Below, piece by piece: positions 1 to 63,790 of a stretch of DNA of 64,000 nt. The position numbers and the translations under genes were made by a program. Numbering within the stretch: position 1 is the stretch's first letter; each line of letters starts with the position of its first letter. The stretch spans positions 1,309,297-1,373,296 of the forward strand of contig CAWHDJ010000018.1 in assembly GCA_963827955.1 (NCBI GenBank). The letters are read 5' to 3'. Under the pieces are notes generated by a model. It was not told the origin of the DNA, did no database searches, and saw only the letters and a list, made by a program, of their open reading frames with translations. Source of the DNA: an uncultured delta proteobacterium. Its GTDB lineage: Bacteria > Myxococcota_A > Polyangia > Polyangiales > Polyangiaceae.

Positions 1-30
1 GCAGGAGCCCCAGGCGCCGCCGCGGAGGGT

Positions 31-681
31 CTATCGGTGGCACGTCGTGCAATTGGTGAGGCTGCGGATCCCGAGCTCTCTCACGAGCTCACGGCCGAGC
101 TCGAGCTGCTGGTCTCCGGCCGACCAGCTCATGTTCGTGATCTGGTCGAGAGGTCTGATGTATTGCTCGGGGTTCCGGTGGCAATCGAGGCACCACCCCA
201 TCGTCAGCGTGGGGACCTGGTGGACCGCCGCCATCCGGTCCACGCGCCCGTGGCAGGTGGCGCAGCCGAACCCGTGCGAGACGTGGATCGAGTGGTTGAA
301 ATACACGAACCCGGGGACCTGGTAGACGCGGTTCCACGGGATCGGCGCGCCGGAGAAGTAGCTCCTCCGGACGACCTCGAGCATGGGACTTTGATTCCAG
401 ATCTGGGAGTGGCAGCCCATGCACTTCTCCGTGGACGGGATGCCAGCCGTGGCCGCCCGATCGACGGTGTTGTGGCAGTACCGGCAGTCGATGCCGTCGT
501 CACGCGCGTGGTGCCGATGGTCGAACTCGACCGGCTGATCCACGACGTTCCACTGGTCGCGGGCCCACTTGGTTCGCACCCAGATCATCGGGGAGGCGAT
601 GACGCCGAACCCGCCGATGACCGCGGCCGCGATCGCGACCCGGAACGCGGTATTGCTCCACGGAGGGAAGACGGCGGCCAT
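31..681 (-). CDS. membrane-anchored pentaheme c-type cytochrome (alternative complex III ActA-like)
   Basis: ORF 31..876(-). Five CxxCH haem motifs (CRYCH, CMGCH, CATCH, CLDCH, CTTCH) follow an N-terminal TM helix (AAAVIGGFGVIASPMIW). Start placed at the ATG of MAAVFPPW (681). The operon partner would lie off the left edge. Confidence 0.7.
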   Translation of the reverse strand: MAAVFPPWSNTAFRVAIAAAVIGGFGVIASPMIWVRTKWARDQWNVVDQPVEFDHRHHARDDGIDCRYCHNTVDRAATAGIPSTEKCMGCHSQIWNQSPMLEVVRRSYFSGAPIPWNRVYQVPGFVYFNHSIHVSHGFGCATCHGRVDRMAAVHQVPTLTMGWCLDCHRNPEQYIRPLDQITNMSWSAGDQQLELGRELVRELGIRSLTNCTTCHR

Positions 682-1004
682 GGTCCCCGAGCCGCGCGGC
701 TGACAAGCACGCTGCGGCGGGGGGCACGTAGCGCTAGGGGGGGAGAGGAGGGAGGGAGGGAGGGCCGCAATGCGGTTCGGGTTGGACGTGGGGGGTGTAC
801 GGTGGGCGTAGGCGCGAGCGAGGGCGATGCGTCGCGGACGATGTGGTGAGAGCTTCCACCGGAGAGCGGCGCGCACGCCGTCGGCGGCCTGCTTGGTCGT
901 TCAATGTCACTGGAACCGGCGGGGCATCATGCTCAGACGGCGTCGGCTCGGGAGGCGACCTGGAAGCGCACGTGGGGTAGGCGCCTCGGGGAGCGGCGCG
1001 AGCC

Positions 1005-2960
1005 TCAGCGGGGAGGCGCGGCGGACGGTGTGGACACGGGGGATCGCGGCCCCCTCGCCTCGTCCGGGAGCAGGTTCGCGAGCCGGAAGGTCTGGAGGAA
1101 GGCACGCTGCTCGGCGCGCTGGAGTGTGTCCTGGAGGCGCGCCATGAGCACGCCGGGCACGATCACCAGGAAGACGCTGGAGACCAGGAGCCCGATCAGC
1201 GTCGGGAGCGGAGAGAGGGTCACGGCGCGGGGGAGGATGATCATGGCGCCGTCGTGGAAGGCGTACGAGGGCGGGACGAGCCCGGCGATCTCCGCACCGA
1301 ACGAGGCGAGCACCGCGACGGCGCCGGTGACGGCGACGGCGACGCGGAACGAGCTATTGTACGTCATGCAGTAGCCGAGGGTGAACGCCGTGAGGAGCGC
1401 GGGCATGAAAAGGAGCGGGCCGAAGCCGCTCCCGATGCAGACGATCGAGAGGACGTTGCCCAGGTACGCGGCGAAGGCGGCGCGGAACATGGACCGTGGC
1501 GCGGCGCAGCGGGAGGCCACGACCTTCATGCCGGCGGCGGCGAGCGAGAGGGCGACGGCAGCGACGAGGACCGCCGGCGTGCGCAAGCCCATCCAGAGGG
1601 CGATGGGCGTCATCAGGGTGATGCCGGCGAGGTCGGCGCCGATGGCCTGGCGGAGCTGGAGGCGGTTGCGCGCCGCCGCGTGCGCTTCGGTCTCGGCGGC
1701 GACAGCGGCGGGGATCTCGCGGGGGGCGGCGCTCAGCACCCCCGCGACGACGCGCAGCGCGGCGGTGTTGGTCGGCTCGAGGGCCAGCGCGCGCCCTGCC
1801 TCCGCGAGCGCGACGCGCACCGCGTCCTCTGCCGGGGAGCGCCCGGCCGCCTCCTCGGCGGCGCGCGCGTGCGCGGCGGCCGCCTGCCGGCGCAGCTCCA
1901 GATCGCGATCGCCCTCGAGGAAGCGCTCGACGGCGTCGTGCAGCTCCCGCGCGCTCTGGTGGCGCTCTGCCGGATCGACGCAGGTGGCCTTGATGCAGAC
2001 GGCGTCGAGCTCCGGGGGCACGTCACGGTCGGGAGCGCGCTCGGAGGCCTTCGCGTTCACGCCGTCGACGGTGGCCATGAGCATGGCGGCCCAGGTGTCC
2101 TTCTCGTGCAGGGGCGTGAGCGTCAGGATCTCGAAGAGCACGGCGCCGAGGGCGTACACGTCGCTGCGGGAGTCGATGTCGGCGAGGGCGCCGCGGGCCT
2201 GCTCCGGCGGCATGTACCCGCAGGTGCCCATGATCGTGCCGACCTCGGTTCCCACGCCATCGCGCTCGCCGTCGAGGATGGTGTCCCCCGGCGCGTTCAG
2301 GAGCTTGGCGATGCCCCAGTCGAGGACGTACACCTCCCCGTACTCGCCCAGCATCAGGTTGTCCGGCTTGATGTCCCGGTGGATCACCCCTCGGGAGTGG
2401 GCGTAGTCGACCGCGAGGCAGACGGCGGCGAACGCGCCGAGGAGGCGCCGCCGGGGGAAACGCTCCGCGCCCGGGTCGCCGCGCCGCTGCGCCCGGAGGA
2501 TCTCGGAGAGGGTCTTGCCGCGCAGGCACTTCATCGTGAAGAACGCGGTGCCCTCGTCGTCCGCGTCGAGGTCGTGGACGGGGACCACGGCCGGGTGCTC
2601 GAGCTGCCCCTGCACCCTCGCCTCCCGCAGGAAGCGGGCGATGGCGCCTTCGTCCCGCCGCGCCTTCGCGGTCATCCGCTTCAGGGCCACGTCGCGGCCG
2701 ACGTGCACGTCGCGGCACAGGACGACCTCGCCCTGCGCGCCCCTGCCGAGGGTGCGCGTCGGCGCGTACCGCCGTACGCCTGCGGCGAGGCGTGCGCCCG
2801 CGCCGAGGGGCGCGCCGGTGCCCGGGCCCACCGGCGGCGGGGCCGAGGGCTCGAACGCGCCGGGCGGCCGCTCCTGGACGGTTCGGGGCAGGGCAGCGTC
2901 GTCCGAGGGCTCCGGGCTGGGCATGGGGAGATCCTTGCCCATCCGGGAAGCGTGCGGCAA
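1005..2960 (-). CDS. Ser/Thr protein kinase with C-terminal polytopic membrane domain
   Basis: ORF 1005..2960(-). Hanks kinase motifs are present: VALKRM (Lys), HRDIKPDNLML (catalytic loop), DWGIAK (DFG-equivalent) and GTCGYMPPE (APE). About 4-5 TM helices follow after residue ~430. The start is ambiguous (2960, or MGKDLPM near 2939). It is co-directional with and immediately downstream of the RiPP genes. Confidence 0.85.
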   Translation of the reverse strand: MPHASRMGKDLPMPSPEPSDDAALPRTVQERPPGAFEPSAPPPVGPGTGAPLGAGARLAAGVRRYAPTRTLGRGAQGEVVLCRDVHVGRDVALKRMTAKARRDEGAIARFLREARVQGQLEHPAVVPVHDLDADDEGTAFFTMKCLRGKTLSEILRAQRRGDPGAERFPRRRLLGAFAAVCLAVDYAHSRGVIHRDIKPDNLMLGEYGEVYVLDWGIAKLLNAPGDTILDGERDGVGTEVGTIMGTCGYMPPEQARGALADIDSRSDVYALGAVLFEILTLTPLHEKDTWAAMLMATVDGVNAKASERAPDRDVPPELDAVCIKATCVDPAERHQSARELHDAVERFLEGDRDLELRRQAAAAHARAAEEAAGRSPAEDAVRVALAEAGRALALEPTNTAALRVVAGVLSAAPREIPAAVAAETEAHAAARNRLQLRQAIGADLAGITLMTPIALWMGLRTPAVLVAAVALSLAAAGMKVVASRCAAPRSMFRAAFAAYLGNVLSIVCIGSGFGPLLFMPALLTAFTLGYCMTYNSSFRVAVAVTGAVAVLASFGAEIAGLVPPSYAFHDGAMIILPRAVTLSPLPTLIGLLVSSVFLVIVPGVLMARLQDTLQRAEQRAFLQTFRLANLLPDEARGPRSPVSTPSAAPPR

Positions 2961-3098
2961 GTCGGTGCATCCTCGAGGCGCGGCGTACGACGTCAGTCGC
3001 AGCCCGCGGTCTTCCTCATGGAGGCGCTGGCGCTGTACGAGCCGCAGATCGGCTTGGTGCTCCTGGCCGGCGTCGAAGAAAGGGGTCGGTGCGCGGCC

Positions 3099-3995
3099 CT
3101 ACGCCCCCGCGGCCCCCCCGCAGACGCGGCACCACGGCAGCCGGACCAGCGTGCACAGCTTGGTCTCGAAGGTGACGAGGTCCTCGATCAGGATGCGCCC
3201 CCCGAGCATCGACCGCGTGTAGCCGGAGACGATCTTGACGACCTCCGTCGCGACCAGGTGACCGAGGAGCCGCGCCATGATCGCGGTCCGCGCGCCGTGC
3301 GCCGTGCGCTCGCCGAGCGGCGGGTTGAGCGCCTCGGCCGACGCGCAGATCCGGCAGGCCGTCCTGCCCGGCACCGTGAGCGGCCCGATCACGGCGCGGG
3401 CCCCGTCGAGGTGCGACCAGAGCGTGCGGACGCCCGCGCGGTGCGCGATGCTCGCGACGCGGCCCGCCTCGGCCACGTCCTCCGGGGCCAGCGCGGGGAT
3501 GAGGAGGCTCGTCCCGGCGTCGATCTTCCCCTCCGCGAGCCGGTCGATCGCGCCGATGCCCGCCGCGCGGAGCTCCGCGACCGCGACGTCGCCCCAGGGC
3601 TCGTACCCGGCCAGGAGCAGGCGCGCGGAGGCGAGCCGCTCCAGGGCCGCCGAGGGAGCGACCGACCAGCGCTGGAGGAACTCCAGTTGCCCGCGGCGGC
3701 TCTCGTCACGATCGTGGTCCGTCACCTCCTCGACGAGCCCGCGCTCCACGAGCCGATCGAGGAAGCGCGATACGCTCTCGGGCGCGTAGCCGGAGAGCGC
3801 CGCGATCACGGCGCCGCGATCGCGCGACCCGTCGAGGAGCGGCACGATCCGCGCCAGGAACGCCTGGGCGTCGGCGCCCGCGACCTGGAAGGTGCCGAGG
3901 TCGGACCGGACGATGACACCGGCCGACGTGGTGGTGACGCTCGCGGAGCTCCGGAGGAGGATGGGTGTCACGGGCGCGCCTCCTCGTCTGCGGGC
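3099..3995 (-). CDS. E1-like (ThiF/MoeB-fold, Ocin-ThiF-like) RiPP partner protein with N-terminal RRE-like extension
   Basis: C-terminal ~300 aa of ORF 3099..4736(-). Rossmann motif LLLAGYEPWGDVAVAELRAAGIGAI, a CRIC...CRVCGG Cys pair at the C-terminus, and a ~140-aa N-terminal domain (MRRTARRR...). It is a paralogue of the E1 domain at 6150-6838. The N-terminus appears in-frame with sagB only because the sagB C-terminus is frameshifted; the true start is probably near 3995. Confidence 0.6.
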   Translation of the reverse strand, partial: ARRRGGAPVTPILLRSSASVTTTSAGVIVRSDLGTFQVAGADAQAFLARIVPLLDGSRDRGAVIAALSGYAPESVSRFLDRLVERGLVEEVTDHDRDESRRGQLEFLQRWSVAPSAALERLASARLLLAGYEPWGDVAVAELRAAGIGAIDRLAEGKIDAGTSLLIPALAPEDVAEAGRVASIAHRAGVRTLWSHLDGARAVIGPLTVPGRTACRICASAEALNPPLGERTAHGARTAIMARLLGHLVATEVVKIVSGYTRSMLGGRILIEDLVTFETKLCTLVRLPWCRVCGGAAGA

Positions 3996-4736
3996 TGTCC
4001 GACGCATACGACGTAGAACGGCTCCTCGTCCTCCGGCAGTTGCAGGAGGGCGCCGAGCTTCCCGATCGTAGAATCCGCCGATCGCGGTCGGTCCGAGCCC
4101 GATCGCCGTGGAGACGAGGTAGATGTTCTGGCCGACGTGCCCGGCGTCGAGGAAGAGGTGCCGATAGCCACGCTGGCCGTACTTCCACATCGTCCGCTCC
4201 CGGATCGCCGTGATCACGACCACCACGTTCGCGTGGCGGGCGACCTCCTGATCCACCAGGAGATCGACCAGGATCGGCTGCGCGAGCCCAGGGACGACGT
4301 GCTCCAGCGCGTGGTCGCGCGCGTCGTAGTGGTAGATGCCGTCGGCGAGCCCCTCCACGGCCTGCGTCGCGACGTAGAGCTCGAGCGGATAACGCCCGCC
4401 GGCCGAGGGCGCCGGCCGGCGGAACCCCTCCTCGCCCGGCCCGCCCCGCGTGACGCGGACGCCGTACGACGCGTACAGGAGGCGCCCGAGCGTCGGGAGG
4501 GGCATGGGCCGGAGCGTGTAGTTGCGGACCGAGCGCCTCCGCTCGAGCGCGGCGCCGAGCGGCATGTCAATCGCGAAGTCCCTCCCGGGCAAGGCCGTGC
4601 GCGCGGCGCCGGGGTAGGTGCGGAGCTGCGCGGGCTGCCGGTCGAGGTCCATGATCGGCGCGATGATGCGCGCGCGCTCGTGAGAGGAGTGTGTGTGGAA
4701 GAGCCGGGCGACGTCCGCCTCGGTACGCGTTGCCAT
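3966..4736 (-). CDS. SagB-type (McbC-like) FMN-dependent azoline dehydrogenase; apparent frameshift near 4050
   Basis: The N-terminal 230 aa of ORF 3099..4736 carry nitroreductase/SagB motifs (RRSVRNYT, GGRYPLELYV, YHYDARDHAL, YRHLFLDAGHVGQNIYL). The conserved C-terminus IGKLGALLQLPEDEEPFYVVCVGQPADEEARP* is in another frame (ORF 3968..4171(-)). The frame switch falls at the GGFYD|IGKL junction. Confidence 0.75.
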
Positions 4737-4745
4737 CGCTTTGCC

Positions 4746-6838
4746 TCAGGCCATGGGGTGGGGATCGGGGTTGATGCCGCGGGAGGCCATCGCCGAGAGG
4801 CGCGGGTTGCCGAGCCGCTCGAGGCCATGGCCGAAGTGGATCTGCTGGAAGCGCGCGCCGAGGGCGCGGGCCACCCGGATCGGCGTGCCGGCGGAGATCC
4901 GGCGATGTCACGTCGACGATGGCGACGCGGAGCCCCGCGGCGGCGAGGCGCCTGCACAGCACGTCGGACGTGACGGCCTCGGGCTCGGGCAGATCGGCGG
5001 CCGCGACCTCGCCGCCTGCGCCCAGGAAGGCGAGCGCCCCCACGCGGTGCTTCGGCACGTAGTAGAGGGCATGGTCTTCGAGCGTCTGCACGTCCTCGGG
5101 ACGCTGCGGGATGGTCCGCTTTCCCTCCGCGACGAGCCGGCACATCCAGGGCCCGAGGTGGCCCTGCTCGAGCAGCGCCCGCGCGATGGCGGTGCGCGGC
5201 CGGAGGTGCGCGGCCATGGACACCGTGGCGCCGGGCCACCCCTCGCCGTCGCCGTACCCGACGCAGATCACGACGGGGATCCCCGCCCCCACCTCGAGCA
5301 GGTACAGCTCGACCCGCGTCCCGCGCTCCTCAATCTGGCGCGCCGCCTCGCGGGCCGCGGCGTCGACCGTCCGGTCGAGGAGCACGCGCCGCCCCGGGCG
5401 CCGCGTCAGCCACGCGATCATGAAGGCGTCGCGCTCGCAGAGCTCCAGCGCGGCCGAGAGCGCGGCGCGGTCGAGCGTCGGCCCGGCGGCCAGGCCGTTC
5501 GAGGTCACGTCGCAGAAGCGCGCTTCCGGGGTGACGGGGAAGCTCATGTAGGTGGGCAGCGCGGGGACCATCACGGGAGCGCGCGAGTCGAGCCAGAAGC
5601 CGCGCACCCAGTCGATCGTCGTGTACGGAGAGAGGCGCGCGAACGGGAAGCCCGGCTGGGCATACTGGCGGTCGCTGTAGAGGCCGAGATCCTGCGGAGA
5701 GAGGAAGTCGCCCTCCATCTCGGCCACGGCGGCGCGGAGCAACGAAGGGTGGTGGAAGCGGCTCGCCGAGTAACGCTCGACCGCCTCGCCCACGGCGCTC
5801 ACCAGGGCGCGCAGCGCGGTGGTGCCCTTGCCGGAGCCCAGCTCGGGGCCGGCGCAGCACGCCGGCACATCGCCCTCTGCCACGCGCGAGAGGACCGCGG
5901 AGGCCGCGATCGGTACGTCCGGCTCCAGCGGGGACGCCGCCGCGCGGACGACGAGGCCCCGGACGATGCCGGTGCGTCGATCCACGACGCCGGCCAGCAT
6001 GCGCCGCAGCTCCTCCGGATCGCGCGCTCGGTCCATGTCCTCGCCGTTGCCCTCGGGCGCGGCGGCGCCGAAGTGGTACGCCCCGCCGCAGACCGAGCAG
6101 TGCGGCATGCGCAGCACGGCGTGGAAGCTCCGCCTCCATCGTGACCAGGTTCTGGACGCAGAGCCGGCCGAGGAGGGGATGGGATCCGGGGCGCGCGAGC
6201 AGGTCGAGCACCGAGAGCGCGAGGGCATGTCCGAGCAGGGCGGGCATGGACGCGAGGTAGGTGCGGGCACGGGCGCGCGGCCGATCGGAGAGCCACGCGG
6301 CGTGGAGGGCGTGTTCGAGATCGAAGCTCGCGCTGGCGGCGAGGCGCCGGAGGCGACAGCACTCCCAGCACGCCGTCTTTCCCGGCACGACCGCCGGCCC
6401 GACGACCGCGTCGAGGCCGTCGAGGTGGGCGCCGATCGAGGCGAGAGAGGCCCGCTCGGCGAAGCGTGCGACGCTTTGCAGCGCGTGCAGATCGTCGCCC
6501 GGCAGCGCGGCGACGATCAGGTCCCAGCGCGCGTCGGGAAGGGCGAGGGAGCGATCCTGGTCGATCGCCAGCGGCCCCGCGGTGACGACACAGCGTGGCG
6601 CGGCCTCTGCCAGCGACGCGCGGAGCGCCTCCGCGCGCCCTCGCCCGAGGTCCTCTTCGCCGAAGAGGCGGGCATACGCCCGATCGTCGGCGGTGACCTC
6701 CCGGTCGTCGAGGATGTGGAGCGCGCCGAGCCCCGCCGCGGCGAGGTCGGTGGCTGCGACGGCTCCCCATGGCTCGACGCCGCAGAGGAGGACACGCGCG
6801 TGAGAGAACCTTGATTCGATGGACGATGACGTGGACAC
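4746..6838 (-). CDS. E1-like-YcaO fused azoline cyclodehydratase (PatD/TruD-like architecture); two apparent frameshifts
   Basis: The E1-like Rossmann domain lies in ORF 5330..6838(-): ARVLLCGVEPWGAVAATDLAAAGLGALHILD and GKTACWECC, running to ...LVTMEAEL. The sequence continues in the ORF 4567..6270 frame as HAVLRMPHCSVCGG... followed by the YcaO domain (GSGKGTTALRALVSAVGEAVERYSA, ...DRAALSAALELCERDAFMIAW). The YcaO C-terminal consensus GTPIRVARALGARFQQIHFGHGLERLGNPRL...NPDPHPMA* lies in a third frame. Frame switches are near 6140 and 4885. GTG start at 6838. Confidence 0.75.
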
Positions 6839-6849
6839 ACCCGCTCCGG

Positions 6850-6885
6850 AGACGATGGGCGCGCCGCGCGAGATCTCTCGCGCCG
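6850..6885 (-). promoter_or_regulatory. GC-rich near-perfect inverted repeat between precursor gene and modification genes
   Basis: gcgcgccgcgcgaga-tc-tctcgcgccgcgcgc: 15-bp arms with one mismatch, centred on agatct. It lies ~55 nt after the precursor stop (6941) and ~12 nt before the E1-YcaO start (6838). Confidence 0.4.
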
Positions 6886-6940
6886 CGCGCCCGGATCGAA
6901 GATCGCGATCAGCGCACCGGCCTCGCGGCGCTCGCCGCCG

Positions 6941-7168
6941 TCAATGGCAGCCCTCGCAGCGGAAGCAGCGGAAGCAGCCCTCGCAGCGGAAGCAGCCCTC
7001 GCAGCGATGGCAGCCCTCGCAGTGATGGCAGCCCTCGCAGCGGAAGAAATGGGCCGTGGGCAGGTCTTCCGACTCCCCCCCGGCGATGGCCCGGATCGCG
7101 TCGCGGACTTCGTTCAATGACAGATGGAGATCGTCGACCTCCACGGTGGATCTGGTCGTATCGTTCAT
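6941..7168 (-). CDS. RiPP precursor peptide: 42-aa leader + Cys-rich repeat core (RCEGC[H/F])n
   Basis: The ATG at 7168 is preceded by the SD-like tgggggg. The 75-aa product is MNDTTRSTVEVDDLHLSLNEVRDAIRAIAGGESEDLPTAHFF-RCEGCHHCEGCHRCEGCFRCEGCFRCFRCEGCH*. It has 11 Cys in 33 residues. It sits directly upstream of the YcaO/E1/SagB genes on the same strand. The core is encoded by an 18-bp DNA tandem repeat. Confidence 0.8.
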   Translation of the reverse strand: MNDTTRSTVEVDDLHLSLNEVRDAIRAIAGGESEDLPTAHFFRCEGCHHCEGCHRCEGCFRCEGCFRCFRCEGCH

Positions 7169-7405
7169 GGTGCCCCCCACGCGGACACATGGGGCCCGCT
7201 GCCTGGCCCGCAAGCCGTCGCGGGCGCCGCTTCGAGTGTCCGGGGGGCCGGGGACCGCCCTCGTCTCCGCCGCGTACCCGCGTGCGCCGGCTTACCGATC
7301 CACCGCTTTCCTGCGCCGCGGCGTGAGCCGGAGCTCACGCTCGACGTTGATTGGGCGAGGCCCGCCCGATACGCCGTACCGACCTCTTTTCTCGCAAAGG
7401 ATGTC

Positions 7406-8787
7406 ATGTCGGTCACGTCGGCTTCGCGCTTGTCCATCCTCCTCGGCTTCCTCGCCCTCGGCTGCGCGGAGCGCCCCCTCTCCGCCGAAGAGACGATGTC
7501 GTCGAGCGGCCCCGCCATCCACTTCGTGACCGGCGCCGGGGAGGTCACGCGCACCTTCCTTCCCGAGCAGGTCGACGTGAAGCTCACCGGCCTCCCGCCG
7601 GCGAGCCGCGTGACCCTGCGCGCGTCGATGCCCGGCTTCGCGTCGCACGCGACCTTCGTCGCCGACGCGGCGGGCGCGGTCGACGTCGCCGCGCAGGCGC
7701 CCGAGGAGGGCACCTACGAGGGCGCCGACGCGGAGGGGCTGTTCTGGTCGATGCTCTCGACGGGCGCGGCTTCGGCCGGCGAGCCGGAGCACATCGACGT
7801 CGACGTGCGCGCCGAGCTCGAAGGAAAGGTGGTCGCGACCGCCACGCTGGCGCGGGACGACACCGCTCCCGGCGTCGTCGAGACGCCCGTCCATGACGAC
7901 GGCCTCGTCGCCGTCCTCGTCACGCCGGCGGCGCCGGGCCCGCACCCCGCGCTGCTCACGTTCGGCGGATCGGAGGGCGGCATCGACTGGGGCCGGAAGG
8001 CGGCGCGGCTCTACGCCTCCCTCGGCTACACCTGCCTCGGCCTTGCGTACTTCGGCGCGCCGGGGCTGCCGCAGCACCTCGAGGATCTCCCGCTGGAGTA
8101 CTTCGGCAAGGCGCTCGCATGGCTGAAGCAGCGCCCCGAGGTGAAGGCCGACGCCATCGGCGTCATGGGCGTCTCTCGCGGCGGCGAGCTGGCGCTCCTC
8201 CTCGGCGCCCACTTCCCGGACGTGAAGGCGGTCGTCGCCCAGGTGCCGAGCGGCGTGGTCTGGCCGGGCTGGGATCCGGACCAGGCGGAGAACAACACGG
8301 GATCGTGGACGCTGGGCGGAAAGGAGCTCTCCTACGTGAAGCCGAGCGACACACCGCCGAAGTTCACCCGCGACGGCAAGGGACATGAGATTCGAGCACG
8401 ACACCCCCATGTTCACGGGCGCGCTCGCCGCCGCCTCGACGGCGGATCTCGACGCCGCGACCACGCCCATCGAGCTCGTGAAGGGCCCCGTGCTCCTGCT
8501 CGCTTCGGCCGACGATCAGATTCTGGCCCTCGTGCCGGCTCGCCGGCATCGCGATGGACCGCCTCCAGAAGACCGGGCACGCGGACGCCTTCGCCGACGA
8601 CTTCGTCTGCTACCCGGAGGCAGGGCACATCACGGGCACGCCCGGCCTGCCGACCACGGGGCTGCCCCTCCTCGAGAGCCACGCGCACTCCTTCATCGCG
8701 ATCGGTGGCACACCCGCGGGCATCGCCCGCGCGGCGCGCGACGAATTCGAGAAGAAGCGCGCTTTCCTCGCGGCCGCGCTCCAGTGA
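7406..8787 (+). CDS. secreted BAAT/acyl-CoA thioester hydrolase family protein (two apparent frameshifts)
   Basis: Signal peptide MSVTSASRLSILLGFLALGCA. BAAT_C motifs LTFGGSEGG and GVMGVSRGGELALLLG (Ser nucleophile). The continuation is in ORF 8385..8870 (GPVLLLASADDQIL) and ORF 8554..8787 (CYPEAGHITGTPGLP...KRAFLAAALQ*). Confidence 0.7.
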
Positions 8788-8802
8788 GGGGCGGGCCCCG
8801 CA

Positions 8803-10158
8803 TCAGCGCCCGTCGACGAAGGTCTCGTACTTGCCGTTCGCCTGCCGCGGGATCGGGGCAGGCCCGGTGAACCTCAGCCGGAAGGGGTGGCCGAGCGCCT
8901 CCTGGATCCGCGCGCCGCTCGCCTGCTCCTCCTCGGGGCCCAGATCGCGCTCGCGCGTGAACCGCACCTCCATCGCGTCCGGCCCCTGCTGGATGACCTG
9001 AATCCACTCCACGTCGGGGATCGCGGCCCACAGCGCGCCCACGTCCGGCCACGCCCGGCGCCCGTCCGGCAGCGTGACCAAGTTTCGCCGCCGGCCGAGG
9101 AGCCGCTCGATCACCGGCAGCCCGCGCCCGCACGGGCAAGGCGCGCCCACCTCCGCGTAGTCTCCGATGGCGTACCGGATGAGCGGCATGGCGAAGTTGT
9201 GCAGGCTCGTCAGCACCACACGCCCGATCTCGCCGGGCCGCGCGGGTAGCCCCTCCTCGTCGAGGATCTCGACGAGGACCGATTCGGACTGCACGTGGTA
9301 GTGCTCGTGCCGCGGGCACTGGAGCGCGACGAAGCCCAGCTCCTCGCAGGAGTACACGTCGCGCACCGGCACGCCCCACGCCTCGCGGCAGGCCTCGCGT
9401 ACGTCCGGAGTCAGAGGCTCTCCGTACGTGTGTACGGCCCGGAGGCCGGGCAGGCGGATCTTCTCTCGCTGCGCGTACCGGGCGAGGGCGCGGGTGTTGC
9501 TGGGATACGAAAGGAGGTAGTGCGGGCGCCGGGCCTCGATCACCTCCATTTGCCGAGGGATCGGCATGAGATGATAGAGCACCGTCACCGGGCCCGTCTT
9601 GCAGACCACCGGCGACATGAGCCCCCAGCTCGGTAGATCCTGGACGGCGAGCGGGTCCGGCGCGTAGCGCCCGGAGCGGATGGCGACGAGCCGCCCGTCG
9701 AGATCTCGCTCGTGCCAGAGGTCGTCGCGGAGCGCGAGGGTCCGCCAGAACAGGCCGGTCACCTCCGTGCACACCACCTCGAGGGGCTCGCCCGTGGATC
9801 CCGAGGTCTTGTTCCGGTACGTCCTGCCGTGCGCGAGCGGGACGGCCCGGCTCTGGATCTCGTCGTGGTGCTCCCGGATGTCCTGCTTCGTGAGCAGGGG
9901 AATCCGCCGCCACGCATCCTTCGTCACGGGCCCATGTCCGTCGCAGCCGGCGGCCGCGAGCCGGCCCCCGTACCACGGCACGGTCGACGAAGCGTGCTCG
10001 AGGAGCTTCGCGAGCTGCCGAAGCTGGCGAGCCTCGATCTGCTCGGCAGGCAACCACTGGCTGCGTTCGAGCTGGAACTCCATGGAGAGGAGCGTCGAGT
10101 CCTCTCCCGTCACGATGGCAGGCCAGACGACCTCGGGGATACACGACCAGAGATTCAT
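8803..10158 (-). CDS. phenylacetate-CoA ligase (PaaK)/F390-synthetase family adenylate-forming enzyme
   Basis: C-terminal 451 aa of ORF 8803..11340(-), starting at ATG 10158 (MNLWSCIPEV). AMP-binding motif TSGSTGEP. It is in-frame with the upstream TetR region only because there is no stop codon between them. Confidence 0.8.
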   Translation of the reverse strand: MNLWSCIPEVVWPAIVTGEDSTLLSMEFQLERSQWLPAEQIEARQLRQLAKLLEHASSTVPWYGGRLAAAGCDGHGPVTKDAWRRIPLLTKQDIREHHDEIQSRAVPLAHGRTYRNKTSGSTGEPLEVVCTEVTGLFWRTLALRDDLWHERDLDGRLVAIRSGRYAPDPLAVQDLPSWGLMSPVVCKTGPVTVLYHLMPIPRQMEVIEARRPHYLLSYPSNTRALARYAQREKIRLPGLRAVHTYGEPLTPDVREACREAWGVPVRDVYSCEELGFVALQCPRHEHYHVQSESVLVEILDEEGLPARPGEIGRVVLTSLHNFAMPLIRYAIGDYAEVGAPCPCGRGLPVIERLLGRRRNLVTLPDGRRAWPDVGALWAAIPDVEWIQVIQQGPDAMEVRFTRERDLGPEEEQASGARIQEALGHPFRLRFTGPAPIPRQANGKYETFVDGR

Positions 10159-10283
10159 GTCACGATCACGCCTTCGCGAGCCCACGCGCAACATGGGCCG
10201 AGCCCGCCGCAGCGTCGATTGGGGGCCGCCCGCGCGAGGCGGGCGAACGTGGATTCGGGACGAAGGCAGAAAAGGGCGAGCGC

Positions 10284-11091
10284 TCAGCCCGAACGGCGCC
10301 GAGAGGTCGTGGGGCCCGCTCCGCGGGCCCGGGGTCCAGGGCTCGCTTGCGAGCCCGCCTGGCGAGGCGGGCCGCTTGCGGCCCCATCGTGACCGGTGCG
10401 CTCGGCGATGGGCTGCGCCGCGACGCCCGTGGCTCGGGTGACCGCGTCGTAGAGCACGAGCTTCAAGAGCTCCACCAGCTCCGCCTTCCCCACGTCGCGC
10501 CGTGCCACCCAGTCGATCGACGTCGCCTCCACGAACCCGATCCACCCGCGCAGCGCGATCCGCACGAGCGGCCCCGGGAAGCTCGGTGGGCATCCCCTCG
10601 AAGATGCGCTCCGCGAACGTGCTGCGCGTCTCCTCCAGGATGGCGGCGACCTCGGGATCCGAGCCGATGCCCCCGCGCATCAGCGCCACGTACGCCTTGC
10701 CGTGCCGCTCCACGAAGGCGAGGTACGTCCCGAGCCCGCGCCGCAGCCGCTCGTCCGGCGTCCCCGGGAGGACCATCGTCGTGTCCTCGAGGAGCCGCTT
10801 CGCCGCGTGCTCGAGCGCGGCCACGTAGAGGTCCCGCTTCGTCGGGAAGTAGTGGTAGAGCAGGCCCTTGGAGACGCCGGCCGCGCGCGCCAGGTCGTCA
10901 ATCGACACCTCGTCGTACGATCGCTCGCTGAACATGGCGAGCCCGAGCGAGAGGAGCTGGGCGCGGCGCTCGTCCACGTCGAGCCGCGCCCGCGGACCGC
11001 CTCCGCTCCTCTCCGGCGGGCGCTGCGAGGCGGGCTTCGCCGCCTCCCGCGTTCGCGGGCGGGGCGGCGGCGAGGACGCGCGTCGGGCCAT
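10284..11091 (-). CDS. TetR/AcrR family transcriptional regulator (apparent frameshift near 10560)
   Basis: The HTH VSIDDLARAAGVSKGLLYHYFPTKRDLY lies in ORF 8803..11340 from the M at 11091. The ligand-domain tail LRGWIGFVEATSIDWVARRDVGKAELVELLKLVLYDAVT lies in ORF 10284..10565(-). Confidence 0.7.
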
Positions 11092-11165
11092 GACCGCCGA
11101 GGATAAGCGGGTGGCAACGTTCAGGAAAGAACGGCGCACCGCGCAACGGGCGGGAGCTTTCCCTA

Positions 11166-11211
11166 TTGACCCCGGTTCAATAGCTCCTATCCTCTGTTGA
11201 ACCGGAGTCAA
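11166..11211. promoter_or_regulatory. palindromic candidate operator in the divergent TetR/hydrolase intergenic region
   Basis: TTGACCCCGGTTCAA-(16)-TTGAACCGGAGTCAA: 15-bp arms with one mismatch, ending 5 nt before the hydrolase ATG (11216). Confidence 0.45.
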
Positions 11212-11215
11212 CGAC

Positions 11216-12040
11216 ATGCTCGACCACACCGCTCCGCACGAACGCCGCATCCCGAAGCCCCGCACGCCCGGCGTCGACCTCGACACGCCCGTGCCGCGCC
11301 ACTGGTTCGCCGGCAACGCCGTGCTCACGCACGTCGCCAACGGCGTGAACCTCCTCTTCCCGGCGGGCGAGCGCTTCTTCGTCCGCTCGGTGAACCATTA
11401 CCTCGATCGGGTCACGGACCCCGTCCTCCGCGATCAGATCAAGGGCTTCTTCGGCCAGGAGGGGCGCCACGCCAAGGAGCACGAGCGCTTCTTCCGCCAG
11501 ATGGAGGCGCAGGGCTACGAGATCGACCGCTTCCTCCGCGTCTACGAGCGCATCGCCTACGGCTTCCTCGAGCGCGTCACCCCTCCGCCGGTGCGCCTCG
11601 CGGCCACGGCCGCGCTCGAGCACTTCACCGCCATCCTCGCGGAGAACGCGCTCTCGCACGGCCTCCTCGACCACGCGCACCCGACCATGCGCGCCCTGCT
11701 CCTCTGGCACGCCGCGGAGGAGATCGAGCACCGCGCCGTCGCCTTCGACGTCCTCCAGGTGGTGGCGCCGAGCTACGGCGTGCGCGTCGCCGGCCTCGCC
11801 ATCGGCGCCGCGTGCCTCGGCGGCTTCTGGGTCGCCGCCGCCGCGATGCTCCTCTGGCAGGAGCGGGGCCTCGACCCCGACCGCCTCGCCGCCGGCGCGC
11901 GCATCGTCGCCGATCACAACCGCCGTCACCCCGTCTTCCTGAAGGGGATCCGCGAGTACCTCGCGCCCAGCTTCCACCCTTCGCAGAAGGACACGGATCG
12001 CCTCGCCGCCGCGTACCTCGCCGGCGTGGGCCTCGCCTGA
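11216..12040 (+). CDS. predicted metal-dependent hydrolase (PF10118-like)
   Basis: Intact 274-aa ORF. His/Glu-rich motifs GQEGRHAKEHERFF and HAAEEIEHRAVAFD. Divergent from the TetR gene. Confidence 0.6.
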   Translation: MLDHTAPHERRIPKPRTPGVDLDTPVPRHWFAGNAVLTHVANGVNLLFPAGERFFVRSVNHYLDRVTDPVLRDQIKGFFGQEGRHAKEHERFFRQMEAQGYEIDRFLRVYERIAYGFLERVTPPPVRLAATAALEHFTAILAENALSHGLLDHAHPTMRALLLWHAAEEIEHRAVAFDVLQVVAPSYGVRVAGLAIGAACLGGFWVAAAAMLLWQERGLDPDRLAAGARIVADHNRRHPVFLKGIREYLAPSFHPSQKDTDRLAAAYLAGVGLA

Positions 12041-16027: not shown

Positions 16028-16816
16028 TCACTCGGCGGACGCGTCCGCGATGGACGCGTCGTCGGTAGCCGCGTCGCCCGTGCCCGCGTCGTTGGTGGCC
16101 GCGCCGCCGGTGCCCGCGCCGCTGGTGGCCGCACCGCCGGTGCCCGCGCCGCTGGTGGTCGCGCCGCTGGTGGCCGCACCGCCGGTGCCCGCGCCGCTGG
16201 TGGTCGCACCGCCGGTGCCCGCGCCGCTGGTGGTCGCCCCCCCCGTGCCTGCGCCGCCGGTGCCCGTGGCGTCGGTGCCCGCGTCCGCGCTCGTGCAGAG
16301 CGGCGGCAGCGGCTCGCACATGCACGTGGGGCTGCACACGATGTCGCCGGGGCTCACGGCGAGGTTGGGGCACGTGAGGCACTTGAAGGGGTGGAAACCG
16401 GCGCAGAAGCCCATCGCCCCCTGGGCGTCAATCTGCGCCTGCGTGACGCAAGGGCCGAAGCCGCCGACGCCGCCGCTGCTGCTGCTACTGCTCGCCGAGC
16501 TCGCGCCGCCCGTCGCCCCGACCCCGCTCCCTCCGAACCCGGAGGTCCCACCGAACCCGGAGCTCCGCCGGACCCGCTGGTCGACCCGACCCCGGCGGCC
16601 CCGCCCACGCCCGGCCCGGTGGTGCTGCTGGCGACCGTGCTCGTGACGGACCCGCTCGCGATCCCCGTGCTGCTGGTCACGGCGGGGCCGGAGCCGCCTC
16701 CGCCGCCCACGCCGCCGAGGTCGTTGCCCTGCGCGCAGCTCCACACCGTGTAGAGCAGGAAGGGCCACAACACTGCGGCGATCCTGGTGCGTGTGCGCGT
16801 GCCTGTCTGGGACCAC
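16028..16816 (-). CDS. secreted Gly/Ser-rich protein with Cys-rich domain and (GAGTGGA[AT]TS)n C-terminal repeats (apparent frameshift)
   Basis: The GTG-start signal peptide VKWSQTGTRTRTRIAAVLWPFLLYTVWSCAQG is in the ORF 16354..17103 frame. The Cys-rich domain (GPCVTQAQIDAQGAMGFCAGFHPFKCLTCPNLAVSPGDIVCSPTCMCEP) and the repeats are in the ORF 16028..17209 frame. Confidence 0.5.
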   Translation of the reverse strand: MVPDRHAHTHQDRRSVVALPALHGVELRAGQRPRRRGRRRRLRPRRDQQHGDRERVRHEHGRQQHHRAGRGRGRRGRVDQRVRRSSGFGGTSGFGGSGVGATGGASSASSSSSSGGVGGFGPCVTQAQIDAQGAMGFCAGFHPFKCLTCPNLAVSPGDIVCSPTCMCEPLPPLCTSADAGTDATGTGGAGTGGATTSGAGTGGATTSGAGTGGAATSGATTSGAGTGGAATSGAGTGGAATNDAGTGDAATDDASIADASAE

Positions 16817-16904
16817 TTCACGGAATCGACCTCCGAACGAGCGGCGGAGGGTACCACGGGGGTGTGACATTTTGCGCTCCGTCTTCGCAATCGATCTGCT
16901 GGGA

Positions 16905-17110
16905 TTGTAAAGGCCCACGCCGTTACGAGGGGCGCGGTCGTCGCTGCGGGAGGTGGGCTCCTCGCACCGATGGGTGCGGTCGTCGTTGCGGGAGGTGGGC
17001 TCCTCGCACCGATGGGCGCGGTCCTCGTTGCGGGAGGTGGGCTCCTCGCACCGATGGGCGCGGTCGTCGTTGCGGGAGGTGAGCTCCTCGCACCGATGGG
17101 CACGGTCCTC
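16905..17110. repeat. 42-bp tandem repeat x ~5 (intergenic)
   Basis: Unit ggtcgtcgttgcgggaggtgggctcctcgcaccgatgggcgc, repeated with few substitutions. All six frames are open across it. It lies between the methyltransferase gene end (17256) and the secreted-protein gene start (~16816). Confidence 0.8.
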
Positions 17111-17255
17111 GCGACGCGGGGCGCGATCCTCGTGAAAGGAGGTGCGCTCCCCGTCCCGATGCGCGCAGGCCCCGCCGAACGATTGGGTAGTGTCGAAAAG
17201 GCCCCTCACCCCAGATAAGGAGTATGGAGGACGGCGAGGTGCTACGGCGTCTCCT

Positions 17256-31117: not shown

Positions 31118-31150
31118 ACGCGGCGCGGCCCGAGCGGTCCCTCGATCCGC

Positions 31151-32790
<1,640 letters not shown>

Positions 32791-63194: not shown

Positions 63195-63409
63195 GCCGGG
63201 CCGATGGTAGCGCGGGGGCGGGGGCGCTTGCGAGGAGAGCCGGCCGAGGGGATAGATTGGGGATGGGGCAAGCGGCGACTGCCACGCCCATCTCCGGCGG
63301 GCCGCCGAGCCGGGAGGCGGACGACGGGGGCGCTGGTTACACCTCCTCGTCGGCTACCGATGCCGTCGAGCGCGAGCACTTCGAGCCTCCCGCCCGCCGG
63401 GAGCGCCGT

Positions 63410-63790
63410 CCCGTCCCCAGGCGCGCCGTCCCGTCGCCGGGAGCGCCTTCCCGTCGCCAGGCGCGCCTTCCCGCCGGCAGGCGCGCCTTCTCGCCGGCAG
63501 GCGCGCCTTCTCGCCGCCAGGCGCGCTTTCCCGTCGCCAGGCGCGCCTTCCCGCCGGCAGGCGCGCCGTCCCACCGGCAGGCGCGCCTTCCCGTCGCCAG
63601 GCGCGCCTTCTCGCCGCCAGGCGCGCCGTCCCGCCGCCGGGCGCGCCTTCTCGCCGCCAGGCGCGCCTTCCCGCCAGCAGGCGCGCCTTCCCGCCAGCAG
63701 GCGCTCCTTCGGCCTGGCAGGCGCTCCTTCGGCCTGGCAGGCGCTCCTTCGGCCTGGCAGGCGCTCCTTCCGCCGGGAGGGCGCGCCTGT
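63410..63790. repeat. 21-bp minisatellite, ~18 units (caggcgcgccttcccgccggc family)
   Basis: Tandem units with point variants (…cgccgtcccgccgc… / …gctccttcggcctggcag…). A different unit from the 33.3-kb array, but the same 21-bp period. Confidence 0.85.

What the first reader, a model, noticed from the sequence alone, without database searches (positions are those of the whole stretch)
6941..7168. Precursor peptide with (R-C-E-G-C-H/F) tandem repeat core encoded by an 18-bp DNA microsatellite
The ORF has a strong SD (tgggggg, 7 nt upstream of the ATG). It encodes the leader MNDTTRSTVEVDDLHLSLNEVRDAIRAIAGGESEDLPTAHFF, then RCEGCHHCEGCHRCEGCFRCEGCFRCFRCEGCH. There are 11 Cys: five CEGC pairs plus one single FRC. 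Every Cys pair is followed by His or Phe and preceded by Arg. At the DNA level the core is a tandem array of the unit ctcgcagcggaagcagcc (6945-7040). Slipped-strand events would therefore add or delete whole CEGCx modules in frame, giving a built-in mechanism for product-length variation. The Cys/His-rich mature peptide could also bind metals if left unmodified; CxxC-H spacing resembles metallothionein or copper-binding motifs. Its position directly upstream of the YcaO/E1/SagB genes favours heterocyclisation instead.
Basis: seen in the sequence. Interest (0 to 1): 0.85.

Follow-up and report, generated by a model that had tools for sequence, protein, structure and literature searches.

The report
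Heterocycloanthracin-like thiazole peptide precursor, myxobacterial
This small gene encodes the precursor of a cysteine-repeat peptide antibiotic of an already described type (heterocycloanthracin-like), sitting beside the enzymes that would turn its cysteines into thiazole rings. It is real, but it is a new member of a known kind, not a new mechanism.

Summary
The ORF (6941-7168, minus strand, 75 aa) and its repetitive core are real. The core is an unbroken (Cys-Xaa-Xaa)x11 array. The basic DNA period is 9 bp, and 18 bp is a super-unit. This is the signature Haft described in 2009 for heterocycloanthracins.

Downstream lies the matching enzyme set: a fused E1-like/YcaO cyclodehydratase that lacks its own leader-binding domain, a SagB dehydrogenase, and a separate leader-binding "F protein". 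The same operon, with a homologous leader and Cys-repeat cores of many kinds, occurs in about 20 Sorangium genomes, Minicystis, Nannocystis and several metagenome contigs.

A contig 93.6% identical over 1.7 kb differs in length only inside the repeat array (+6, -9, -9 nt, all in frame; 10 versus 11 Cys), apart from one single-base difference. This supports in-frame gain and loss of modules.

Caveat: in this window the cyclodehydratase, the SagB gene and the neighbouring hydrolase carry five single-base insertions, which shift the reading frame. These are either sequencing errors or recent gene decay. Thiazole formation is inferred, not shown.

The feature is a new member of a known kind and of modest interest.

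The parts
6941..7168 (-). Precursor peptide gene (75 aa plus TGA stop)
   Evidence: Translation. Homologues P0001-P0005, P0126, and the L003 and L131 peptides.
7043..7168 (-). Leader region, residues 1-42, with the conserved motif DDLxLxLNEVRDAIR
   Evidence: Leader alignment A3. hhalign against the Sorangium-type leaders gives probability 95.5%, E 1.4e-8. pN is below pS.
6944..7042 (-). Core region, residues 43-75: R-(Cys-Xaa-Xaa)x11, with units CEG, CHH, CHR, CFR and a terminal CH
   Evidence: codon list. All 11 Cys are TGC, all 5 Glu-Gly are GAG-GGC, and 3 of the 4 core His are the rare codon CAT.
6947..7046 (.). Tandem DNA array with a 9-bp base period and an 18-bp super-unit; two perfect adjacent 18-bp copies of TGCGAGGGCTGCTTCCGC
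   Evidence: TRF. The indels relative to L082 are confined to this array.
7173..7179 (-). G-rich Shine-Dalgarno-like run (tgggggg), 4 nt upstream of the ATG
   Evidence: A G-run sits at the same place in L082, L003, L001 and L004.
7186..7194 (-). Conserved CCCCATGTG box upstream of the SD-like run; function unknown (5'UTR or promoter element)
   Evidence: Present in the window, L082 and L003; shortened to CCCATGTG in L001 and to CCCCATGT in L004.
6857..6892 (-). GC-rich stem-loop between the precursor stop and the cyclodehydratase start
   Evidence: A hairpin occurs at the same place in L082 and in L003, where the stem sequence differs. The z-scores are only -1.5 to -2.4.
4749..6838 (-). Fused E1/ThiF-like + YcaO cyclodehydratase ('CD'; 696 aa after removing single extra bases at 6126 and 4894). 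It has no N-terminal leader-binding (RRE) domain. The C-terminus is ...NPDPHPMA.
   Evidence: After repair it scores 239 bits on TIGR03604 (cut-off 219) and 57.9 bits on TIGR03882. Residue 7 aligns to MccB residue ~110.
3968..4736 (-). SagB-type FMN dehydrogenase (about 255 aa after removing one extra base at 4065)
   Evidence: TIGR03605 154.6 bits, cut-off 78.4.
3099..3971 (-). F protein: N-terminal winged-helix RRE plus a ThiF-like domain. The reading frame is intact. Its GTG start overlaps the SagB TGA stop (GTGA).
   Evidence: TIGR03882 43.1 bits, cut-off 36.9. PDB hits to the PbtF RRE (8t19) and the TruD/LynD N-terminus. GTGA overlap.
7406..8787 (+). Divergent BAAT/acyl-CoA-thioesterase-family hydrolase with a lipoprotein signal (..LALGC); two +1 frameshifts at 8391 and 8521. 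It is a conserved neighbour of this precursor subfamily.
   Evidence: Pfam. Synteny in L001, L002, L003 and L082. Frameshifts. Coordinates.
8803..10158 (-). PaaK/F390-synthetase-like AMP-dependent ligase, syntenic with the precursor family in two other loci. Its link to the pathway is unproven.
   Evidence: It is 65% identical to the ligase directly downstream of precursor P0004 in L083, and 72.5% identical to the ligase fragment in L001.

Best explanation
The ORF is the precursor (A peptide) of a linear thiazole-containing RiPP of the heterocycloanthracin (HCA) type, in a myxobacterium of the Sorangium/Minicystis lineage.

Proposed mechanism:
1. The 42-residue leader (DDLxLxLNEVRDAIR) is bound by the winged-helix RRE of the separate F protein.
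2. The F protein recruits the fused E1-like/YcaO cyclodehydratase, which has no RRE of its own.
3. Using ATP, the cyclodehydratase converts each Cys of the (Cys-Xaa-Xaa)x11 core into a thiazoline.
4. The SagB flavoprotein oxidises the thiazolines to thiazoles, giving up to 11 azoles at every third residue.

Because the core is encoded by near-identical 9/18-bp DNA units, slippage or unequal recombination adds and removes whole CXX units in frame, so close relatives make products of different length.

Shown here: the ORF, the periodicity, the leader family, the conserved operon, the enzyme family memberships, and the in-frame indels between close relatives.

Inferred: leader binding, thiazole formation, leader removal, export and bioactivity. 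Also inferred: that the enzymes are functional in this particular genome, since two of the three enzyme genes (the cyclodehydratase and SagB) are frameshifted as sequenced.
For: - The peptide sequence and the 11 Cys at period 3, and the 9/18-bp array.
- A weak hit of the core to TIGR03601, heterocycloanthracin/sonorensin. Homologue P0003 carries a precomputed Pfam PF27784 Bacteriocin_sonorensin hit.
- Eight or more peptides share the leader and have variable Cys-repeat cores.
- hhalign links this leader to the Sorangium-type leaders (95.5%, E 1.4e-8).
- The operon precursor - fused CD - SagB - F is conserved in L002-L004 and in about 20 Sorangiineae genomes.
- After repair, the CD, B and F proteins pass the NCBIfam cut-offs.
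- The CD protein starts where MccB residue ~110 aligns, so it lacks the ~100-aa RRE. The F protein's N-terminus matches the PbtF RRE.
- These are the features Cox et al. list for all HCA clusters (PMC4603692).
- Against L082 (93.6% nt identity), every length difference except one single base falls in the array and is in frame: +6, -9, -9 nt. This parallels Haft's tripeptide indels (PMC2674419).
Against: - The TIGR03601 score is 22.4 bits against a cut-off of 35, and the match covers only the low-complexity core. Homology of the leader to the Bacillus HCA leaders is therefore not shown.
- The CD gene has two +1 frameshifts and the SagB gene has one, as sequenced. The pathway may be dead in this genome.
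- No protease, transporter or immunity gene was identified.
- No chemical or expression data exist for any member of this myxobacterial family in the literature searched.
Confidence: 0.8

Rival explanations
1. Relic cluster. The locus was an HCA-like TOMM cluster but is decaying in this genome. The cyclodehydratase and dehydrogenase are pseudogenes, and the intact precursor ORF is no longer matured.
For: - There are five +1 single-base insertions relative to all homologues, at 6126 and 4894 (CD), 4065 (SagB), and 8391 and 8521 (the BAAT hydrolase).
- The 6126 insertion is absent from the 93.6%-identical contig L082.
- The five lie within about 5.7 kb. A crude scan found about one other likely frameshift in the remaining ~56 kb, in an M16 peptidase near 32000.
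Against: - All five changes are single-base insertions, with no deletions, in-frame stops or rearrangements.
- Removing three bases restores full-length proteins that pass curated cut-offs.
- pN/pS against L082 is about 0.2-0.3 on both sides of the 6126 shift in the restored frame.
- At least one unrelated gene also looks frameshifted, as expected from an error-prone assembly.
- The frameshift scan of the rest of the window was insensitive. It missed the 4065 shift, for example.
Confidence: 0.25
2. Unmodified Cys/His-rich metal-binding peptide, metallothionein-like or a copper chaperone, in which the CxxC-H motifs bind metal directly as free thiols.
For: The composition alone: five CEGC motifs, each followed by His or Phe. 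No experiment excludes partial modification that leaves some free thiols.
Against: - A 42-aa conserved leader has no role in a metallothionein.
- The gene is always immediately upstream of a TOMM cyclodehydratase/dehydrogenase/F-protein operon.
- Paralogous cores in the family, such as (CS)n, (CGGG)n and (CVG)n, lack His and Glu, so the only conserved feature is periodic Cys.
- No metal-related genes lie adjacent.
Confidence: 0.05
3. Non-coding 9-bp microsatellite that happens to lie in an open frame of a 72% GC genome.
For: A metagenome scan for the CEGCxxCEGC DNA pattern returned more than 100 hits. Most are plain (TGCGAGGGC)n-type simple repeats in unrelated contexts, so such arrays do arise without coding. 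High-GC genomes have long spurious ORFs.
Against: - The leader is conserved at the protein level, with pN below pS.
- The start codon, the SD-like run and the position relative to the enzymes are conserved.
- All indels between close and distant relatives keep the frame.
Confidence: 0.02

Closest known systems
Heterocycloanthracin / sonorensin family (TIGR03601, Pfam PF27784; Haft 2009, PMC2674419; Cox et al. 2015, PMC4603692)
   Same: - A leader followed by a low-complexity Cys-Xaa-Xaa repeat core.
- Close relatives differ by in-frame tripeptide indels.
- The biosynthetic set is a fused C-D cyclodehydratase lacking the N-terminal ~100 aa, an ocin-ThiF-like F protein and a SagB dehydrogenase.
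- The precursor is adjacent to the enzymes, as in B. licheniformis.
   Different: - The host is a myxobacterium (Sorangiineae-like, 72% GC), not Bacillus.
- The TIGR03601 score is below the cut-off and the match covers the core only, so leader homology to the Bacillus leaders is not demonstrated.
- The core units are CEG/CHR/CFR/CHH (charged and aromatic) rather than CGG/CWS/CS.
- There is no WNWWII or [FY]EY tail.
- The conserved neighbours are a BAAT-type hydrolase and a PaaK-like ligase, not the Bacillus methyltransferase and succinyltransferase genes.
Unnamed Cys-repeat precursors upstream of 'TOMM precursor leader peptide-binding protein' genes in Sorangium, Minicystis rosea and Nannocystis (loci L005-L026)
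   Same: - The same operon order: precursor - fused CD (~700 aa) - SagB - F.
- CD identity is 60-65%, and the F-protein RRE is 48-64% identical.
- The leaders are homologous.
- The cores are periodic Cys repeats that vary from strain to strain.
   Different: - Their cores are (CS)n, (CGG)n, (CGGG)n, (CGGGCHR)n or (CVG/CVS)n, without the CEGC-[H/F]-R module.
- They use the leader subtype MSDSNN..PKDLDV.VKELRNAIDELS.
- No BAAT hydrolase was noted next to them.
F-protein-dependent thiopeptide cyclodehydratases (for example the PbtF/TbtF type)
   Same: A separate RRE-bearing ocin-ThiF-like protein combined with an RRE-less fused cyclodehydratase. The F protein's N-terminus hits the PbtF RRE structure 8t19.
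   Different: No Ser/Thr-rich thiopeptide core, no lanthipeptide-type dehydratases and no [4+2] pyridine synthase were found in the locus.
Canonical fused cyclodehydratases with their own RRE next to CXX-repeat precursors in Nostoc, Gemmatimonadales, Ginsengibacter and Pyxidicoccus (L024, L039, L044-L054, L048)
   Same: Cys-periodic repeat cores next to a fused E1-YcaO and a SagB gene.
   Different: In L024, L044-L054 and L048 the F/RRE-like segment lies immediately upstream of, or fused to, the CD gene, so no separate downstream F gene is seen; no F-like segment was detected for the Ginsengibacter loci (L039, L042). The leaders are unrelated. CD identity is only 26-50%.

Membership tests
Heterocycloanthracin (HCA) type TOMM | Precursor with a C-terminal low-complexity core in which Cys recurs every third residue (Cys-Xaa-Xaa) | tested here: met
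   11 Cys at exact period 3 over 33 residues. TRF finds a 9-bp period.
Heterocycloanthracin (HCA) type TOMM | Precursor scores above the curated cut-off of TIGR03601 (35 bits) | tested here: not met
   22.4 bits, E 1.4e-4, and only core residues 42-74 are matched. The homologues score 10-27 bits.
Heterocycloanthracin (HCA) type TOMM | Match to Pfam PF27784 Bacteriocin_sonorensin | not testable with these tools
   The local Pfam copy gives no hit even for P0003, which carries a precomputed PF27784 hit. The model is evidently absent from the local library.
Heterocycloanthracin (HCA) type TOMM | Fused C-D cyclodehydratase missing the ~100 N-terminal residues (RRE) of the C domain | tested here: met
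   The repaired 696-aa protein contains ThiF + TIGR03882 + a full-length TIGR03604 match. Residue 7 aligns with MccB residues 109-112 and residue 146 with TruD residue 198. Homologues of 680-730 aa have the same architecture.
Heterocycloanthracin (HCA) type TOMM | Separate ocin-ThiF-like F protein (leader-binding) in the cluster | tested here: met
   ORF 3971-3099 scores 43.1 bits on TIGR03882 against a cut-off of 36.9. Its N-terminal residues 4-82 match the PbtF RRE (8t19) and TruD/LynD.
Heterocycloanthracin (HCA) type TOMM | SagB-type dehydrogenase (B protein) in the cluster | tested here: met
   TIGR03605 scores 154.6 bits against a cut-off of 78.4 after removing base 4065, and 140 bits unrepaired.
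Heterocycloanthracin (HCA) type TOMM | Close relatives differ by in-frame Cys-Xaa-Xaa indels | tested here: met
   L082, 93.6% identical in nucleotides, differs by +6, -9 and -9 nt confined to the array, giving 10 versus 11 Cys.
Heterocycloanthracin (HCA) type TOMM | Leader homologous to the Bacillus HCA leaders | tested here: inconclusive
   Only the Minicystis relative aligns to TIGR03601 across leader and core (profile positions 6-86), at 22.5 bits. The window's leader is not matched. No Bacillus sequences were available for a profile-profile test.
Heterocycloanthracin (HCA) type TOMM | Thiazol(in)e rings actually installed on the core | not testable with these tools
   This needs mass spectrometry of the co-expressed peptide.
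Functional TOMM gene cluster in this genome | Intact reading frames for the cyclodehydratase and the dehydrogenase | tested here: not met
   +1 insertions at 6126, 4894 and 4065 relative to L002, L003 and L082. Whether they are errors or real mutations is unresolved.
Sorangiineae Cys-repeat TOMM precursor family (unnamed) | Leader motif DL.[LV]...E[IL][RK][DN]A[IV], located directly upstream of CD-B-F | tested here: met
   Alignments A3 and A4; hhalign 95.5%, E 1.4e-8. Synteny.
Phase-variable contingency locus (simple-sequence repeat switch) | Repeat-number changes that switch expression on and off (unit length not a multiple of 3, or a promoter location), and heterogeneity within one population | tested here: not met
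   The unit is 9 bp and lies inside the ORF, so changes alter length, not frame. Within-population variation could not be tested because there are no reads.
Metallothionein-like / CxxC metal-binding peptide | Free-thiol metal ligands, no leader peptide, no modification enzymes | tested here: not met
   A conserved 42-aa leader and a dedicated TOMM operon are present. Metal binding itself is untested.

The most novel reading that the evidence does not exclude
The CEGC-[H/F]-R subfamily (this window, L082, L003, L001, L083, and P0002, P0005 and P0126) could be a distinct product class within HCA-type peptides. It would be a His/Glu/Arg-decorated polythiazole that acts as a metal-binding peptide (metallophore-like) rather than a classical bacteriocin. 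It would be further tailored or released by the two neighbours that travel with it, the secreted BAAT-type lipoprotein hydrolase and the PaaK-like AMP ligase. Its length would be diversified within populations by 9-bp repeat slippage.
Probability: 0.1. Interest if true: 0.6.

Novelty: new member of a known kind. Interest (0 to 1): 0.3.

Why it matters
No mature heterocycloanthracin-type structure from a myxobacterium, and no study of this Sorangiineae precursor family, turned up in the literature available here. The family is nevertheless present in essentially every Sorangium genome sampled, and its cores are extremely variable.

This locus adds a chemically unusual core (Glu, His, Phe and Arg between the Cys residues). 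Together with the near-identical contig L082, it gives a clean natural example of in-frame repeat-unit gain and loss in a RiPP core.

It is a reasonable genome-mining target for heterologous expression. It does not change how we understand TOMM biosynthesis.

Tried and rejected
- **Exact-sequence look-up of the window peptide:** it is not on record.
- **Local Pfam scans of the precursors:** no hits, because the PF27784 model is absent locally.
- **Metagenome scan with the leader pattern L[AS][LV][NR]E[IV]RDA[IV]:** 93 pattern matches, none confirmed as a relative.
- **Metagenome DNA scan for CEGCxxCEGC:** Only L131 is a family member.
- **Profile search of 1.84 billion representative proteins:** only 9 hits. 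Small ORFs are under-called, so family size had to be judged from DNA next to the enzymes instead.
- **Second precursor copy in the window,** as found upstream of the ligase in L083: none found.
- **Frameshifts as systematic errors at GATC methylation sites:** rejected. The window has 430 GATC sites and only 15 GATTC.
- **GC-phase frame plot to count frameshifts window-wide:** too noisy. The ORF-tail method is only semi-quantitative.
- **Ser/Thr kinase at 2960-1005 as part of the cluster:** rejected. The homologous loci have unrelated genes at that position.
- **Rfam on 1-12000:** nothing found.
- **Sigma-70 promoter and intrinsic terminator scan of 6700-7500:** nothing found.
- **Source genome:** it is not in the GTDB-representative collection. 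The best hit to the query P0007 there is 64% identical, whereas the window's own gene is about 74% identical to P0007.

Full report
**1. Observation**

Tandem Repeats Finder reports one array at 6947-7046 with periods 9, 18, 27 and 36. Read in frame, the core is an uninterrupted (Cys-Xaa-Xaa)x11 series: CEG CHH CEG CHR CEG CFR CEG CFR CFR CEG CH. The real unit is therefore 9 bp.

- One CEGC pair is preceded by His, not Arg.
- The G-run (7179-7173) ends 4 nt before the ATG.

At the codon level the units are near-identical. All Cys are TGC and all Glu-Gly are GAG-GGC. There are two perfect adjacent copies of TGCGAGGGCTGCTTCCGC. Three of the four core His use CAT, a codon that makes up only 4% of His codons in ten confident genes of the window. 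This fits descent of the units by DNA duplication.

**2. It is a gene**

A search of 5.8 billion proteins found five peptides with the same leader and variable Cys-repeat cores (P0001-P0005). A profile search of 1.84 billion representatives added P0126 and a few weaker ones. More members were read directly from DNA: L003, Minicystis rosea (L004) and L131.

The leaders share M-x-D-T...DL-x-L-x-[LV]-N-E-[VI]-R-D-A-[IV]-R (alignment A3). Over the first 27 codons, pN (0.17-0.19) is below pS (0.27-0.41) in the comparisons of the window and L082 with L003 and L001. The ATG, a G-rich SD-like run and a CCCCATGTG box upstream are conserved in position. Only one copy exists in the window.

**3. Genomic context**

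Downstream on the same strand lie three genes:
- An E1/ThiF-like domain fused to a YcaO domain (6838-4749).
- A SagB-type dehydrogenase (4736-3968).
- A protein with an N-terminal winged-helix domain and a ThiF-like domain (3971-3099). Its GTG start overlaps the SagB TGA stop.

Full-length homologues of the fusion protein (680-730 aa, ThiF + YcaO) are abundant in Sorangium, Minicystis, Byssovorax and Nannocystis. They are often annotated 'TOMM precursor leader peptide-binding protein'.

The order precursor - CD - SagB - F is conserved in the metagenome loci L002 and L003, in Minicystis rosea, and in about 20 Sorangiineae genomes. In nearly all of those loci a small ORF with a homologous leader lies directly upstream of CD (hhalign of the two leader types: 95.5% probability, E 1.4e-8). 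Its core is a Cys repeat of varying period, such as (CS)n, (CGG)n, (CGGG)n, (CGGGCHR)n or (CVG/CVS)n.

The window's organism is not among the GTDB representatives. The best CD identity there is 64%. It is probably an unsampled member of the same myxobacterial lineage; this is an inference from the nearest named relatives and the 72% GC content.

**4. Comparison with what is known**

Haft (2009, PMC2674419) defined heterocycloanthracins as TOMM precursors with a leader plus a Cys-Xaa-Xaa repeat region. He noted that closely related sequences differ by tripeptide indels.

Cox et al. (2015, PMC4603692) state that all HCA clusters share three components:
- A fused C-D cyclodehydratase missing ~100 N-terminal residues, and so lacking leader recognition.
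- An ocin-ThiF-like F protein that binds the leader. They cite Dunbar et al. 2015 for this, a paper I could not read here.
- A B protein.

I tested each feature.
- After removing the three extra bases, the CD protein (696 aa) gives a full-length TIGR03604 match (239 bits, cut-off 219) and a TIGR03882 match (57.9 bits, cut-off 36.9).
- Its residue 7 aligns with MccB residue ~110 and its residue 146 with TruD residue 198, so the RRE segment is absent.
- The F protein passes TIGR03882 (43.1 bits, cut-off 36.9). Its first 80 residues match the solved PbtF RRE and the N-terminus of TruD/LynD.
- SagB passes TIGR03605 (154.6 bits, cut-off 78.4).

The precursor itself hits TIGR03601 only weakly (22.4 bits against a cut-off of 35) and only through its core. 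Homologue P0003 carries a precomputed Pfam PF27784 'Bacteriocin_sonorensin' hit, but that model is not in the local library.

So the system works like, and is built like, an HCA cluster. Homology of the leader to the Bacillus leaders remains unproven.

Fused cyclodehydratases next to CXX-repeat precursors also occur in Nostoc, a Gemmatimonadales MAG, Ginsengibacter and Pyxidicoccus. In most of these, apart from the Ginsengibacter loci where no such segment was detected, the RRE-like segment is attached to or immediately upstream of the CD gene, so they are not the F-dependent type.

**5. Repeat-number variation**

L082 is a short-read metagenome contig covering the hydrolase start, the precursor and 331 codons of CD. 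It is 93.6% identical to the window over 1726 aligned bases.

Its only length differences are +6, -9 and -9 nt inside the repeat array, plus the single base at 6126. Its peptide has the same leader (two substitutions) but the core QCFRCEGCFRCFRCEGCHRCEGCFRCEGCH, with 10 Cys still at strict period 3.

The mechanism (slippage or unequal recombination) is inferred. Because the unit length is a multiple of 3, this is length diversification and not an on/off phase switch.

**6. Frameshifts**

Relative to L002 and L003 (and to L082 where it overlaps), the window has single extra bases at 6126 and 4894 in CD and at 4065 in SagB. Relative to L001, L002 and L003, it has extra bases at 8391 and 8521 in the divergent BAAT-family hydrolase. 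As sequenced, the cyclodehydratase and the dehydrogenase are therefore truncated.

Evidence for sequencing error:
- All five changes are +1 insertions, with no other lesions.
- Deleting them restores complete proteins that pass the cut-offs.
- pN/pS against L082 stays at about 0.2-0.3 on both sides of the 6126 shift in the restored frame.
- At least one unrelated gene, an M16 peptidase near 32000, also appears frameshifted.

Evidence for real decay:
- The five lie within about 5.7 kb.
- Most other long genes in the window run cleanly to their stop codons.

The idea that these are systematic errors at GATC methylation sites was rejected. I cannot settle the question without reads. I give about 25% to a genuinely decaying cluster.

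**7. Mechanism proposed**

- The leader is bound by the RRE of the F protein (inferred from family knowledge).
- F recruits the RRE-less E1-YcaO fusion.
- ATP-dependent cyclodehydration converts Cys to thiazolines.
- SagB oxidises these to thiazoles.
- The product is a linear peptide with up to 11 thiazoles, one at every third position.

Every second Cys follows Gly, and the others follow Arg or His. Leader cleavage, export and bioactivity are unknown. No protease or transporter gene was identified beside the operon.

Two neighbours travel with this CEGC-type subfamily and may or may not take part:
- The BAAT-type hydrolase with a lipoprotein signal, found in L001, L002, L003 and L082.
- A PaaK/F390-synthetase-like AMP ligase. 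It is 65% identical to the gene directly downstream of precursor P0004 in L083, and is also present in L001.

The Ser/Thr kinase downstream (2960-1005) is not conserved in the homologous loci.

**8. Rivals**

- A plain metal-binding Cys/His peptide is unlikely, given the conserved leader, the dedicated operon, and sister cores that lack His and Glu.
- A non-coding microsatellite is excluded by leader conservation and frame-preserving indels. However, the metagenome scan shows that (TGCGAGGGC)n arrays by themselves are common and uninformative.

**9. Verdict**

However, the feature is an instance of a class described in 2009, in a lineage (Sorangiineae) where the same operon is widespread though, as far as the searchable literature shows, unstudied.

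- Novelty: new member of a known kind.
- Interest: about 0.3. It is a sensible genome-mining target with an unusual core composition and a neat natural example of repeat-unit indels, but it is not surprising to a RiPP specialist.

Noticed in passing
window 6126, 4894, 4065, 8391, 8521: Five single-base insertions relative to all homologous loci. They frameshift the fused cyclodehydratase (twice), SagB (once) and the BAAT hydrolase (twice). Either assembly errors or recent pseudogenisation.
   Followed up: partly
window ~31118-32790 (+): A probable further frameshift near 32000 in an M16-family peptidase. The coding signal switches frame, and the Peptidase_M16_C domain begins just after the switch.
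   Followed up: partly
window 8803-10158 (-); L083 400-1740; L001 3-551: A PaaK/F390-synthetase-like AMP-dependent ligase is syntenic with this precursor subfamily. In L083 it lies directly downstream of a second-type precursor (P0004). In L001 the order is ligase - BAAT hydrolase - precursor, as in the window.
   Followed up: partly
window 7406-8787 (+): The BAAT/acyl-CoA thioesterase-family alpha/beta hydrolase has a lipoprotein-type signal (LGFLALGC). It is conserved divergently next to the CEGC-type precursors (L001, L002, L003, L082) but is not seen beside the Minicystis precursor locus (L004). It could be a leader peptidase, a tailoring enzyme or an immunity function; this is untested.
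   Followed up: partly
window 6857-6892 (-): A strong GC hairpin (15 bp with one bulge) lies between the precursor stop and the cyclodehydratase start. Hairpins occur at the same position in L082 and in L003, where the stem sequence differs. No U-tract follows. It may be a transcript-processing or attenuation element. The z-scores are modest because of the high GC content.
   Followed up: partly
window 7186-7194 (-) and equivalent sites in L082, L003, L001, L004: A conserved CCCCATGTG box lies about 8-13 nt upstream of the G-rich SD-like run of the precursor genes. The Sorangium loci also show a strongly conserved untranslated stretch just before the start, which reads '..LCVPHLLVGGSAM' when translated.
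   Followed up: no
window 6941-7168 (-): The precursor gene is enriched in rare A/T-ending codons: 11 of 75 codons, and 5 of 6 His are CAT against 4% genome-wide. Its GC3 is 0.84, against 0.95-0.99 in neighbouring genes. Homologous precursor genes show the same tendency (GC3 0.86-0.94).
   Followed up: partly
window 33325-34137: A large 21-bp tandem array with 38.5 copies at 81% match (consensus AGCGGAGCGGGTGCGCTGCGG). Not examined further.
   Followed up: no
window 63388-63788: A 20-bp tandem array with 20 copies at 87% match. The unit length is not a multiple of 3, so the array is probably non-coding.
   Followed up: no
window 16926-17132 and 16040-16288: A 42-bp array (4.4 copies, 93% match) and 15/45-bp arrays lie inside or near ORF 16028-17209. 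That ORF translates to repeated '..DRAHRCEEPTSRN..' and Gly/Thr/Ala-rich units.
   Followed up: no
L002 ~5688-6060 (+): In the nanopore-derived contig L002 there is no intact precursor between the hydrolase and CD. A frameshifted precursor-like sequence (leader MADTNKPAGDLADLLL.., then a CSGCGGC.. core) lies on the far side of the hydrolase gene.
   Followed up: no
L014 and L016 (Sorangium cellulosum So ce26, Sorangium sp. So ce131); L010, L018, L051: Some genomes carry tandem duplications of the system. Examples are two CD paralogues (SOCE26_073170 and SOCE26_073200) and two precursor genes with different cores in one locus.
   Followed up: no
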